Assembly: GCF_024502345.1 (NCBI RefSeq)
Contig: NZ_JALDNN010000001.1
Source: Escherichia coli
GTDB taxonomy: Bacteria; Pseudomonadota; Gammaproteobacteria; Enterobacterales; Enterobacteriaceae
Length of the DNA: 64,000 nucleotides
Direction: 5' to 3' (one strand)
The position numbers and the translations under genes are program-made. Below are positions 22,902 to 25,990 of this stretch, piece after piece (position 1 is the stretch's first letter; every line of letters begins with the position of its first letter). Under the pieces are notes generated by a model. It was not told the origin of the DNA. It saw nothing but the letters and a program-made list of their open reading frames with translations, and did not search any database.

Positions 22902-23570
22902 ATGATTCGCTTTGAACATGTCAGCAAGGCTTATCTCGGTGGGAGACAGGCGCTGCAGGGCGTTACGTTCCATATGCAGCCGGGTGAGATGGCGTTTCTG
23001 ACCGGTCATTCCGGCGCAGGGAAAAGTACCCTCCTGAAGCTGATCTGTGGGATTGAGCGGCCCAGCGCCGGGAAAATCTGGTTTAGCGGCCATGACATCA
23101 CGCGTCTGAAAAACCGTGAAGTTCCGTTTCTGCGCCGCCAGATTGGCATGATTTTCCAGGATCACCATCTACTGATGGACCGTACTGTCTACGATAACGT
23201 GGCGATCCCGCTGATTATCGCTGGTGCCAGCGGTGACGATATTCGTCGCCGGGTGTCGGCGGCACTGGATAAAGTCGGGCTACTGGACAAAGCGAAGAAC
23301 TTCCCTATTCAGCTTTCCGGCGGTGAACAACAGCGTGTTGGCATTGCCCGCGCGGTGGTGAATAAGCCCGCGGTACTGCTGGCGGACGAACCGACCGGTA
23401 ACCTGGACGACGCGTTGTCGGAAGGGATTCTACGTCTGTTTGAAGAGTTTAACCGCGTTGGGGTAACCGTATTGATGGCAACGCACGACATCAACCTGAT
23501 TTCACGGCGTTCCTATCGCATGCTCACCCTGAGCGATGGTCACTTGCATGGAGGCGTGGGCCATGAATAA
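22902..23570 (+). CDS. ftsE: Cell-division ABC ATPase FtsE
   Basis: 222 aa; Walker [18 protein letters not shown] signature. Confidence 0.95.
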
Positions 23571-24621
23571 GCGCGATGCAATCAATCATATTCGGCAGTT
23601 TGGTGGGCGTCTGGATCGCTTCCGTAAATCGGTCGGCGGCTCAGGCGACGGCGGTCGTAACGCACCGAAACGCGCGAAATCCTCGCCAAAACCGGTAAAT
23701 CGCAAAACCAACGTTTTCAACGAACAGGTGCGCTATGCCTTCCACGGCGCATTGCAGGATCTGAAAAGCAAACCGTTCGCCACGTTTTTAACGGTGATGG
23801 TTATCGCCATCTCCCTGACGCTGCCCAGCGTCTGTTATATGGTGTACAAAAACGTTAATCAGGCGGCGACGCAGTATTATCCGTCACCGCAAATCACTGT
23901 TTACTTGCAAAAAACGCTGGACGATGACGCCGCTGCGGGCGTGGTGGCACAGTTGCAGGCCGAGCAAGGCGTGGAGAAAGTGAACTATCTTTCTCGTGAA
24001 GACGCACTGGGCGAGTTCCGTAACTGGTCTGGTTTTGGTGGTGCGCTGGATATGCTGGAAGAAAACCCGCTTCCGGCAGTGGCGGTGGTGATCCCGAAAC
24101 TCGATTTTCAGGGGACGGAATCACTCAATACGCTGCGTGATCGTATCACGCAGATTAACGGCATTGACGAAGTGCGGATGGATGACAGCTGGTTTGCCCG
24201 TCTGGCGGCGTTGACCGGGCTGGTCGGGCGCGTTTCGGCGATGATCGGCGTGTTGATGGTGGCGGCAGTGTTCCTCGTCATCGGCAACAGCGTACGTCTG
24301 AGCATCTTTGCTCGCCGTGACTCCATCAACGTGCAGAAACTGATTGGTGCGACGGATGGTTTCATCCTTCGCCCGTTCCTGTATGGTGGCGCACTGCTGG
24401 GATTTTCTGGCGCATTGTTGTCATTAATTTTGTCAGAAATTCTGGTGCTGCGATTGTCATCGGCGGTTGCGGAAGTGGCACAGGTTTTCGGAACGAAGTT
24501 TGATATCAATGGTTTATCGTTCGATGAATGCCTGCTATTGCTGCTGGTATGCTCGATGATTGGCTGGGTGGCAGCGTGGCTTGCCACGGTACAACATTTA
24601 CGCCACTTTACGCCTGAATAA
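23563..24621 (+). CDS. ftsX: Cell-division ABC permease-like protein FtsX
   Basis: Track ORF starts at 23536; ATG at 23563 (MNKRDAINH...) overlapping the ftsE stop gives 352 aa. Confidence 0.92.
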
Positions 24622-24636
24622 TAAAAGCGTGTTATA

Positions 24637-24673
24637 CTCTTTCCCTGCAATGGGTTCCGTAGCAGGGAAAGAG
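24637..24673 (+). other. Perfect 11-bp stem hairpin downstream of ftsX (possible terminator or RNA processing structure)
   Basis: CTCTTTCCCTG-N15-CAGGGAAAGAG; no strong T-tract follows. Confidence 0.4.
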
Positions 24674-24745
24674 ATCCCGTTGTCTCTTCCCGGTATTTCA
24701 TCTCTATGTCACATTTTGTGCGTAATTTATTCACAAGCTTGCATT

Positions 24746-24772
24746 GAACTTGTGGATAAAATCACGGTCTGA
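24746..24772 (+). promoter_or_regulatory. rpoH sigma-E-dependent promoter (P3) overlapping a DnaA-box-like 9-mer
   Basis: GAACTT -35 and TCTGA -10 with 16-bp spacer; spacer contains TGTGGATAA, the reverse complement of the DnaA box TTATCCACA. Confidence 0.6.
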
Positions 24773-24865
24773 TAAAACAGTGAATGATAACCTCGTTGCT
24801 CTTAAGCTCTGGCACAGTTGTTGCTACCACTGAAGCGCCAGAAGATATCGATTGAGAGGATTTGA

Positions 24866-25720
24866 ATGACTGACAAAATGCAAAGTTTAGCTTTAGCCCC
24901 AGTTGGCAACCTGGATTCCTACATCCGGGCAGCTAACGCGTGGCCGATGTTGTCGGCTGACGAGGAGCGGGCGCTGGCTGAAAAGCTGCATTACCATGGC
25001 GATCTGGAAGCAGCTAAAACGCTGATCCTGTCTCACCTGCGGTTTGTTGTTCATATTGCTCGTAATTATGCGGGCTATGGCCTGCCACAGGCGGATTTGA
25101 TTCAGGAAGGTAACATCGGCCTGATGAAAGCAGTGCGCCGTTTCAACCCGGAAGTGGGTGTGCGCCTGGTCTCCTTCGCCGTTCACTGGATCAAAGCAGA
25201 GATCCACGAATACGTTCTGCGTAACTGGCGTATCGTCAAAGTTGCGACCACCAAAGCGCAGCGCAAACTGTTCTTCAACCTGCGTAAAACCAAGCAGCGT
25301 CTGGGCTGGTTTAACCAGGATGAAGTCGAAATGGTGGCCCGTGAACTGGGCGTAACCAGCAAAGACGTTCGTGAGATGGAATCACGTATGGCGGCACAGG
25401 ACATGACCTTTGACCTGTCTTCCGACGACGATTCCGACAGCCAGCCGATGGCACCGGTGCTCTATCTGCAGGATAAATCATCTAACTTTGCCGACGGCAT
25501 CGAAGATGATAACTGGGAAGAGCAGGCGGCAAACCGTCTGACCGACGCGATGCAAGGTCTGGACGAGCGTAGCCAGGACATCATCCGCGCGCGCTGGCTG
25601 GACGAAGACAACAAGTCCACGTTGCAGGAACTGGCTGACCGTTACGGCGTTTCCGCTGAGCGTGTGCGCCAGCTGGAAAAGAACGCGATGAAAAAATTGC
25701 GTGCTGCTATAGAAGCGTAA
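24866..25720 (+). CDS. rpoH: RNA polymerase heat-shock sigma factor sigma-32
   Basis: 284 aa; sigma-70 family regions 2 and 4; matches K-12 RpoH. Confidence 0.97.
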
Positions 25721-25741
25721 TTTCCGCTATTAAGCAGAGAA

Positions 25742-25773
25742 CCCTGGATGCGAGTCCGGGGTTTTTGTTTTTT
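25742..25773 (+). terminator. Rho-independent terminator of rpoH
   Basis: CCCTGG-atgcgagt-CCGGGG stem-loop followed by TTTTTGTTTTTT. Confidence 0.75.
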
Positions 25774-25990
25774 GGGCCTCTGTAATAATCAATTTCCCCT
25801 CCGGCAAAACGCCAATCCCCACGCAGATTGTTAATAAACTGTCAAAATAGCTATTCCAATATCATAAAAATCGGGTATGTTTTAGCAGAGTATGCTGCTA
25901 AAGCACGGGTAGTCATGCATAAAACGAAATAAAGTGCTGAACAACAACATCACAACACACGTAATAACCAGAAGAATGGGGATTCTCAGG

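What the first reader, a model, noticed from the sequence alone, without database searches (positions are those of the whole stretch)
24622..24865. rpoH upstream region: sigma-E promoter overlapping a DnaA-box-like 9-mer, preceded by an 11-bp perfect-stem hairpin
GAACTT-N16-TCTGA fits the sigma-E promoter architecture, and TGTGGATAA (reverse complement of TTATCCACA) lies in its spacer. A long perfect hairpin follows the ftsX stop. This is consistent with the known multi-promoter control of rpoH.
Basis: partly seen in the sequence, partly recalled or inferred. Interest (0 to 1): 0.2.

Follow-up and report, generated by a model that had tools for sequence, protein, structure and literature searches.

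The report
Known rpoH promoter region of E. coli

Summary
The window is E. coli ftsYEX-rpoH-livJ, and 24622-24865 is the whole 244-bp ftsX-rpoH spacer. It differs from K-12 at one base.

All three observations hold:
- **Sigma-E promoter.** GAACTT (24746-51), N16, TCTGA (24768-72) occurs once in 64 kb, against 0.05 expected.
- **DnaA box.** TGTGGATAA (24751-59) is the reverse complement of TTATCCACA and lies in that spacer.
- **Hairpin.** A perfect hairpin starts 15 nt after the ftsX stop, but its stem is 12 bp (24637-48/24662-73), not 11.

The first two are the textbook rpoH P3 promoter and the DnaA box shown to bind DnaA in vivo.

In about 114 Enterobacterales species:
- The sigma-E promoter is kept in 112.
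- The DnaA box is exact in 66 of 69 Enterobacteriaceae and Erwiniaceae, and in 0 of 40 Yersinia-, Serratia- or Pectobacterium-type species.
- The hairpin is kept with compensatory changes in 11 of 12 pairs and a sense-strand U·G bias.

The hairpin has no U-tract. A C-rich tract follows it, and it overlaps an invariant TGnTATAnT, the likely P1 extended -10 element. I read it as the 3' stem-loop of ftsYEX mRNA (inferred). P1 would then start inside its 5' arm.

Verdict: already known, low interest.

The parts
24619..24621 (+). ftsX stop codon (TAA), followed by a second in-frame TAA
   Evidence: ORF 23536-24621 is FtsX.
24630..24638 (+). TGtTATACT: extended -10 element, most likely that of the distal rpoH promoter P1. 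The predicted start is about 24645-24647, roughly 220 nt before the ATG.
   Evidence: T, G, T, A, T, A and T of TGnTATAnT are invariant in 69 of 69 aligned species. The motif was found in 110 of 114 loci. Assignment to P1 is inferred from position, since P1 is known from memory as a distal sigma-70 promoter more than 200 nt upstream. No mapped start site could be read here.
24637..24673 (+). Hairpin: 12-bp perfect stem (24637-48 with 24662-73), 4 inner pairs and a 3-nt loop. Read as the 3' stem-loop of ftsYEX mRNA.
   Evidence: dG about -26 kcal/mol, z about -5; 90.1% of cells paired, 11 of 12 pairs with compensatory changes, 0 of 500 shuffles as good; consensus structure found without prompting. 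U·G outnumbers C·A by 45 to about 5.
24674..24745 (+). C-rich, G-poor tract after the hairpin (18 C, 10 G), a possible Rho-utilisation region
   Evidence: C exceeds G in 85 of 92 species. A Rho termination region is reported at MG1655 3600870(-), which is window 24779.
24717..24725 (-). DnaA-box-like 9-mer TTACGCACA (one mismatch to TTATNCACA)
   Evidence: kept at the same position in most Enterobacteriaceae.
24727..24735 (+). DnaA box TTATTCACA (exact TTATNCACA)
24746..24751 (+). -35 hexamer GAACTT of the sigma-E promoter rpoH P3
24751..24759 (-). DnaA box TTATCCACA (exact, high-affinity type) in the P3 spacer
   Evidence: ChIP-seq box. Clade-specific conservation.
24768..24772 (+). -10 element TCTGA of rpoH P3. 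The predicted start is about 24778-24780, roughly 87 nt before the ATG.
   Evidence: The start position is inferred from the usual 6-7 nt spacing, not read from a mapped data set.
24866..24868 (+). rpoH start codon

Best explanation
The interval is the complete ftsX-rpoH intergenic region of E. coli and holds the known multi-promoter control region of rpoH. GAACTT-N16-TCTGA is promoter P3. RNA polymerase carrying sigma-E (RpoE) binds it and starts about 87 nt upstream of the ATG. This links envelope stress and extreme heat to sigma-32 synthesis. The TTATCCACA box in the P3 spacer, together with the boxes 16-34 bp upstream, binds DnaA. Bound there, DnaA covers the -35 and spacer region and represses the proximal promoters. 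The hairpin is an RNA structure formed in sense transcripts that arrive from ftsX. It has no U-tract and a C-rich tract follows it. It therefore most likely acts as the 3' stem-loop of the ftsYEX message. Polymerases would be stopped, probably by Rho, roughly 100 nt further on, and exonucleases would trim the RNA back to the stem. The stem overlaps the last two bases of an invariant extended -10 element (TGnTATAnT) that I assign to the distal promoter P1. P1 transcripts would then begin inside the 5' arm, lack the full hairpin and pass through it. Shown here: the motifs, their statistics, their conservation and the RNA covariation. Taken from literature: sigma-E dependence, DnaA occupancy and DnaA repression. 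Inferred: the hairpin's role, the P1 assignment and both start positions.
For: Identity of the locus. P3: a single match against 0.05 expected. GAACTT-N16-TCnnA with at most one mismatch and an invariant 16-nt spacer is present in 112 of 114 Enterobacterales loci. Literature use of rpoH P3 as a sigma-E-specific promoter. RpoE SELEX peak. DnaA: the exact consensus box and a ChIP-seq peak naming this sequence. Repression is cited. The box is exact in 58 of 60 Enterobacteriaceae and 8 of 9 Erwiniaceae but in 0 of 40 Yersinia-, Serratia- or Pectobacterium-type loci that keep the sigma-E promoter. It is therefore constrained separately from the promoter. Hairpin. These give 90.1% pairing against 46-60% when the partner columns are slid, compensatory changes in 11 of 12 pairs, and 45 U·G or G·U pairs against about 5 C·A or A·C. 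No U-tract. C exceeds G downstream in 85 of 92 species. This matches the class of U-less protective stem-loops at the ends of Rho-dependent transcripts. Rho termination region at window 24779. Invariant TGnTATAnT abutting the stem.
Against: I could not read a mapped transcription start for P1 or P3 from any held paper, so both start positions are predictions. No Term-seq 3' end is listed at the base of the hairpin in the one data set I could search. That data set lists only dominant peaks, and ftsYEX is weakly expressed. The Rho score at 3600870 is modest (1.92). It could instead reflect termination within P1 transcripts, or induction of rpoH by bicyclomycin. A few lineages (the Sodalis/Acerihabitans type, Brenneria salicis and B. 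izbisi, Serratia marcescens and Symbiopectobacterium) lack the hairpin.
Confidence: 0.85

Rival explanations
1. The hairpin is a canonical Rho-independent (intrinsic) terminator of ftsYEX that releases polymerase directly at its 3' edge.
For: It is a stable GC-rich stem-loop 15 nt after the stop codon. A few species have 4-6 T right after the stem, namely Kluyvera, Cedecea and isolates RIT691 and RIT693.
Against: The terminator scan found none. Only 3 of the 8 bases after the stem are T in the window. The mean is 2.6 of 8 across 92 species, and only 4 of those species have 5 or more.
Confidence: 0.2
2. The hairpin belongs to the P1 mRNA as a 5'-terminal stem-loop that stabilises the rpoH message, with P1 starting upstream of 24637.
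For: Covariation shows a sense-strand RNA structure. RNase III and PNPase affect rpoH mRNA stability.
Against: The only conserved -10-like element is TGnTATAnT, whose last two bases are already in the stem. A start 6-9 nt downstream falls at stem positions 8-11. No conserved -10 lies further upstream, where the sequence is the ftsX stop codon followed by a T-run or A-run.
Confidence: 0.07
3. The inverted repeat is a DNA operator for a dimeric protein that sits on the P1 start site.
For: It is a perfect palindrome centred just downstream of a -10 element.
Against: The arms change together while keeping complementarity. The mismatches are 45 U·G or G·U against about 5 C·A or A·C, an asymmetry expected only for RNA read from the + strand. 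Loop length also varies from 8 to 18 nt.
Confidence: 0.05
4. The sigma-E-like motif and the DnaA 9-mer are chance matches with no function.
For: Short motifs do occur by chance. About 1.9 TTATNCACA sites are expected per window.
Against: Only 0.05 matches to the sigma-E pattern are expected. The motif is conserved across the order with a fixed spacer. Published sigma-E and DnaA binding data exist for this very site.
Confidence: 0.01

Closest known systems
rpoH P3, the sigma-E (RpoE) dependent promoter of E. coli K-12 (Erickson & Gross 1989; Wang & Kaguni 1989, cited)
   Same: The sequence is identical. The window differs from MG1655 at only one base of the spacer (24675), outside every motif. 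It has the same -35, 16-nt spacer and -10 architecture.
   Different: Nothing differs. This is the same element in another E. coli strain.
DnaA boxes of the rpoH regulatory region (Wang & Kaguni 1989 J Biol Chem; ChIP-seq in PMC11317965)
   Same: It is the same TTATCCACA 9-mer named in the ChIP-seq table, and the upstream TTATTCACA box is present.
   Different: None in E. coli. My comparison adds that the box extends to Erwiniaceae and is absent from Yersinia-, Serratia- and Pectobacterium-type species. From memory, Ramirez-Santos et al. 2001 reached a similar conclusion with far fewer species. I could not read that paper here.
U-less protective 3' stem-loops of Rho-dependent transcripts (Dar & Sorek 2018, PMC6061677)
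   Same: A stable stem-loop just after the stop codon, no U-tract, C exceeding G downstream, and a reported Rho region about 105 nt further on.
   Different: No steady-state 3' end at the stem base was found in the tables I could search. Unusually, the 5' arm overlaps the -10 element and start region of the next promoter.
Intrinsic (Rho-independent) terminators
   Same: A GC-rich stem-loop of terminator-like size and energy.
   Different: It lacks the defining U-tract.

Membership tests
Sigma-E (RpoE) dependent promoter | -35 element (G)GAACTT | tested here: met
   GAACTT at 24746-51. All six positions are 83-100% conserved in both clade groups.
Sigma-E (RpoE) dependent promoter | Spacer of 16 ±1 nt and a -10 element TCnnA with invariant C | tested here: met
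   The spacer is 16 nt and the -10 is TCTGA at 24768-72. The spacer is 16 nt in all 112 conserved cases. The -10 variants TCTGA, TCGAA, TCAAA and TCTAA all keep T, C and A.
Sigma-E (RpoE) dependent promoter | Transcription start 6-7 nt downstream that depends on rpoE | not testable with these tools
   Literature only. P3 is described as exclusively sigma-E transcribed. An rpoHP3::lacZ fusion rises 3.8-fold in a delta-rseA strain. P3 is used as the in-vitro control for sigma-E holoenzyme. There is an RpoE SELEX peak.
DnaA box (TTATNCACA) acting as a repressor site | 9-mer matching TTATNCACA | tested here: met
   TTATCCACA at 24751-59 (- strand) and TTATTCACA at 24727-35 (+ strand).
DnaA box (TTATNCACA) acting as a repressor site | DnaA occupancy in vivo | not testable with these tools
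   Literature: a ChIP-seq peak at MG1655 3600944 (window about 24705) that lists this box.
DnaA box (TTATNCACA) acting as a repressor site | Sequence constraint beyond what the overlapping promoter needs | tested here: met
   The box is exact in 66 of 69 Enterobacteriaceae and Erwiniaceae loci. Species of the other families keep the sigma-E promoter with unrelated spacers, 0 of 40 having the box.
Intrinsic terminator | GC-rich stem-loop | tested here: met
Intrinsic terminator | U-tract of about 7-8 nt directly after the stem | tested here: not met
   The bases after the stem are ATCCCGTT. The scan found no terminator. The mean is 2.6 T in 8 nt over 92 species.
Protective 3' stem-loop of a Rho-dependent transcript | Stable stem-loop without a U-tract, followed by C exceeding G | tested here: met
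   The class is defined.
Protective 3' stem-loop of a Rho-dependent transcript | Steady-state 3' end at the stem base, and read-through when Rho is inhibited | tested here: inconclusive
   A Rho region lies at 3600870(-) with score 1.92 and p = 1e-11. No Term-seq 3' end is listed between 3600900 and 3601099.
Conserved structured RNA (sense strand) | Base pairs kept through compensatory changes beyond controls | tested here: met
   11 of 12 pairs, 85 cells changed on both sides against 20 ±10 in shuffles, 0 of 500 shuffles as high. Slid controls give 46-60% paired against 90.1% observed.
Rfam families | Match to any curated covariance model | tested here: not met
   No hit at E ≤ 1 in 24300-25800.

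The most novel reading that the evidence does not exclude
The invariant overlap of the ftsYEX stem-loop with the P1 -10 and start region, kept across four families of Enterobacterales, is a functional coupling device rather than mere compaction. In one version, traffic from the cell-division operon and initiation at P1 interfere with each other. In another, the C-rich 220-nt P1 leader is subject to regulated Rho-dependent attenuation. Either would add an undescribed layer to rpoH control.
Probability: 0.12. Interest if true: 0.4.

Novelty: already known. Interest (0 to 1): 0.1.

Why it matters
It matters little as a discovery. rpoH P3 is the reference sigma-E promoter, and DnaA control of rpoH has been known since 1989. 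The check is still useful in three ways. It confirms that the first-stage reader can recognise real regulatory elements from sequence alone. It shows on about 114 species that the sigma-E promoter is ancient in Enterobacterales, whereas the DnaA box is a later addition confined to Enterobacteriaceae and Erwiniaceae. It also documents that the ftsX-proximal hairpin is a covarying sense-strand RNA structure interlocked with the P1 -10 element. That arrangement may deserve a simple 3'/5' end-mapping experiment.

Tried and rejected
- **Rfam.** A scan of 24300-25800 at E ≤ 1 found nothing.
- **Sigma-70 promoter and terminator scan.** It found no terminator and none of the known weak rpoH promoters. 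It is uninformative for P1, P4 and P5.
- **Alternative pairing of the 3' arm.** I tested whether the 3' arm (GGGAAAGAG) pairs with the downstream CTCTTCCC copy (24683-91, repeat I4) to form a 5' hairpin in P1 RNA. Only 6.5% of 92 species beat composition-matched shuffles at p ≤ 0.05, which is chance level. Rejected.
- **DNA operator reading of the palindrome.** Rejected on the wobble asymmetry.
- **Mapped start and end sites from published tables.**
  - The Thomason 2015, Ramirez-Santos 2001, Wang & Kaguni 1989 and Zahrl 2006 papers are not held.
  - The Conway 2014 and Dar & Sorek 2018 supplements are not held as text.
  - The Kim 2012 E. coli table is cut before 3.6 Mb.
- **Full-text search for the P3 sequence string.** No hits.
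- **First pass at locating the ftsX stop.** An ORF-length rule picked spurious frames. I replaced it with alignment to the FtsX C-terminus.

Full report
**Locus.** ORFs around the finding translate to FtsY, FtsE, FtsX (23536-24621), RpoH (24866-25720) and LivJ. A 341-nt query across the finding matches 5425 of 5426 complete E. coli genomes, always under ftsX and rpoH. In MG1655 the same order is annotated. The window aligns without gaps to MG1655, with record coordinate = 3625649 minus window coordinate. Only one substitution falls in the 244-bp spacer (24675, T here and C in K-12), and it lies outside every motif.

**Checking the observation.** All three elements are present.
- GAACTT (24746-51), 16 nt, TCTGA (24768-72) is the only such match on either strand of the window, against 0.05 expected.
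- TGTGGATAA (24751-59) is TTATCCACA on the minus strand. It begins at the last T of the -35 hexamer.
- The hairpin has a 12-bp perfect stem (24637-48 with 24662-73), not 11. Four inner pairs and a 3-nt loop complete it. Free energy is about -26 kcal/mol, z is -4.5 to -5.2, and no shuffle folds as well.
The two exact boxes form the arms of an inverted repeat.

**What the sigma-E motif and DnaA box are.** These are the known rpoH P3 promoter and its DnaA boxes.
- Papers I could read describe P3 as "exclusively transcribed by sigma-E".
- P3 serves as the control promoter for in-vitro transcription by sigma-E holoenzyme.
- An rpoHP3::lacZ fusion rises 3.8-fold without the anti-sigma factor RseA.
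- Genomic SELEX with RpoE holoenzyme gives one of its strongest peaks (37.4) in the rpoH/ftsX spacer.
- DnaA ChIP-seq reports an rpoH peak at 3600944 (window about 24705). It names the box tTTATCCACAagTTCAATGCAa, the reverse complement of window 24740-60.
- Repression of rpoH by DnaA is credited to Wang & Kaguni 1989.
- EcoCyc-based summaries list RpoD, RpoE, RpoN and RpoS promoters at rpoH, with DnaA, CRP, CytR, CpxR, IHF and ZraR as regulators.

**Comparative test.** I anchored a degenerate DNA pattern on RpoH codons 19-29, not on the promoter. It retrieved 120 Enterobacterales loci. I located the rpoH ATG and the ftsX stop in each by homology.
- GAACTT-N16-TCnnA, with at most one mismatch and always a 16-nt spacer, is present in 112 of 114 evaluable loci. 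The -10 varies within the sigma-E consensus: TCTGA in Enterobacteriaceae and Pectobacterium, TCGAA in Yersinia, TCAAA in Serratia, TCTAA in Dickeya and Lonsdalea.
- The DnaA box is exact in 58 of 60 Enterobacteriaceae and 8 of 9 Erwiniaceae. It is absent from all 40 Yersinia-, Serratia-, Pectobacterium- or Brenneria-type loci, whose spacers are unrelated.
- The box is therefore not needed for sigma-E promoter function and is constrained separately in one clade.
- This agrees with my memory of Ramirez-Santos et al. 2001 (NAR 29:380), which I could not open.
- Within E. coli, an ST131 variant differs at 24654 (hairpin loop), 24675, 24699 and 24737. None of these touches a stem, a hexamer or a box.

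**The hairpin.** It is conserved far beyond E. coli.
- 87 of 100 distinct sequences have a contiguous stem of 9 bp or more at the same place. About 4% of shuffles reach that length.
- On a MAFFT alignment of 69 species (A1), RNAalifold recovers the stem unprompted.
- 90.1% of cells are paired, against 46-60% when the partner columns are slid. Compensatory changes occur in 11 of 12 pairs. None of 500 shuffles reaches any of the five measures.
- Non-Watson-Crick cells are 45 U·G or G·U against about 5 C·A or A·C. Both arise by transitions, so this asymmetry indicates selection on RNA read from the + strand. It argues against a DNA operator.
- The stem is not followed by a U-tract. Three of the next 8 bases are T in the window, the mean is 2.6 over 92 species, and only 4 species have 5 or more.
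- The next 70 nt have more C than G in 85 of 92 species, with 18 C to 10 G in the window.
- This profile matches the U-less protective stem-loops at the steady-state ends of Rho-dependent transcripts.
- A bicyclomycin-sensitive Rho termination region is reported at 3600870(-), which is window 24779, about 105 nt downstream.
- Against this reading, the same study's Term-seq tables list no 3' end at the stem base. The Rho signal could also come from P1 transcripts or from rpoH induction.

**Interlock with P1.** Directly 5' of the stem lies TGnTATAnT (24630-38). Its seven specified bases are invariant in all 69 aligned species, and its last two bases are the first two of the stem. This is an extended -10 element with no good -35. 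It sits where the distal sigma-70 promoter P1 is known to lie, more than 200 nt upstream by my recollection. A start 6-9 nt downstream (24644-47, about 220 nt before the ATG) falls inside the 5' arm. P1 RNA would then lack the hairpin, and only transcripts coming from ftsX could form it. This step is inferred, because I could not obtain a mapped P1 start.

**Rejected ideas.** A switch in which the 3' arm pairs with a downstream CTCTTCCC copy is no better than chance. There is no Rfam match.

**Verdict.** The elements are already known, and interest is low. The only mildly new material is the clade limits of the DnaA box and the covariation evidence for the ftsX-proximal hairpin and its overlap with the P1 -10 element.

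Noticed in passing
window 24845-24847 (MG1655 3600804/3600802, - strand): Published Term-seq data list a very strong RNA 3' end 19-21 nt upstream of the rpoH start codon in two growth conditions. It is flagged as lying in a Rho termination region. A short RNA ending inside the rpoH 5' UTR is not part of the classical promoter picture.
   Followed up: partly
window ~24779 (MG1655 3600870, - strand): A bicyclomycin-sensitive 'Rho termination region' (score 1.92, p = 1e-11) is centred almost exactly on the predicted P3 start. Its source is open: end of ftsYEX read-through, attenuation of the long P1 leader, or rpoH induction by the drug.
   Followed up: partly
window 24717-24735: Two more DnaA-type 9-mers lie head to head, 1 bp apart: TTACGCACA (- strand) and TTATTCACA (+ strand). 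Both are kept at fixed distance from the P3 box in most Enterobacteriaceae.
   Followed up: yes
loci L007, L032, L060, L072, L101 (Acerihabitans, Sodalis and related MAGs): These lineages keep TGTTATAMT after ftsX but replace the hairpin with an unrelated conserved sequence (…GACCGCAC[ATG]AGCTGATC…). Their sigma-E-like motif reads GAACTA-N16-TCTTA.
   Followed up: no
locus L072 (NZ_SZPQ01000006.1): The record is titled Martelella alba, an alphaproteobacterial name. It carries an Enterobacterales-type ftsX-rpoH locus that resembles the Sodalis group, so the assembly may be mislabelled or contaminated.
   Followed up: no
window 24675: The window has T where K-12 and most E. coli genomes have C, two bases after the stem. 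Only 989 of 5425 genomes are at least 99% identical to the window over 24619-24700.
   Followed up: partly
window 24568-24595: An imperfect inverted repeat (13-nt arms, 77% complementary) lies inside the last codons of ftsX. It is probably chance.
   Followed up: no
window 24771-24779, and the matching sites 81-109 nt before the ATG in other loci: A one-mismatch DnaA-like 9-mer (TCATTCACA or TCATCCACA, - strand) recurs just downstream of the P3 -10 in E. albertii, Enterobacter, Yokenella and Pseudescherichia, but not in the window itself.
   Followed up: no
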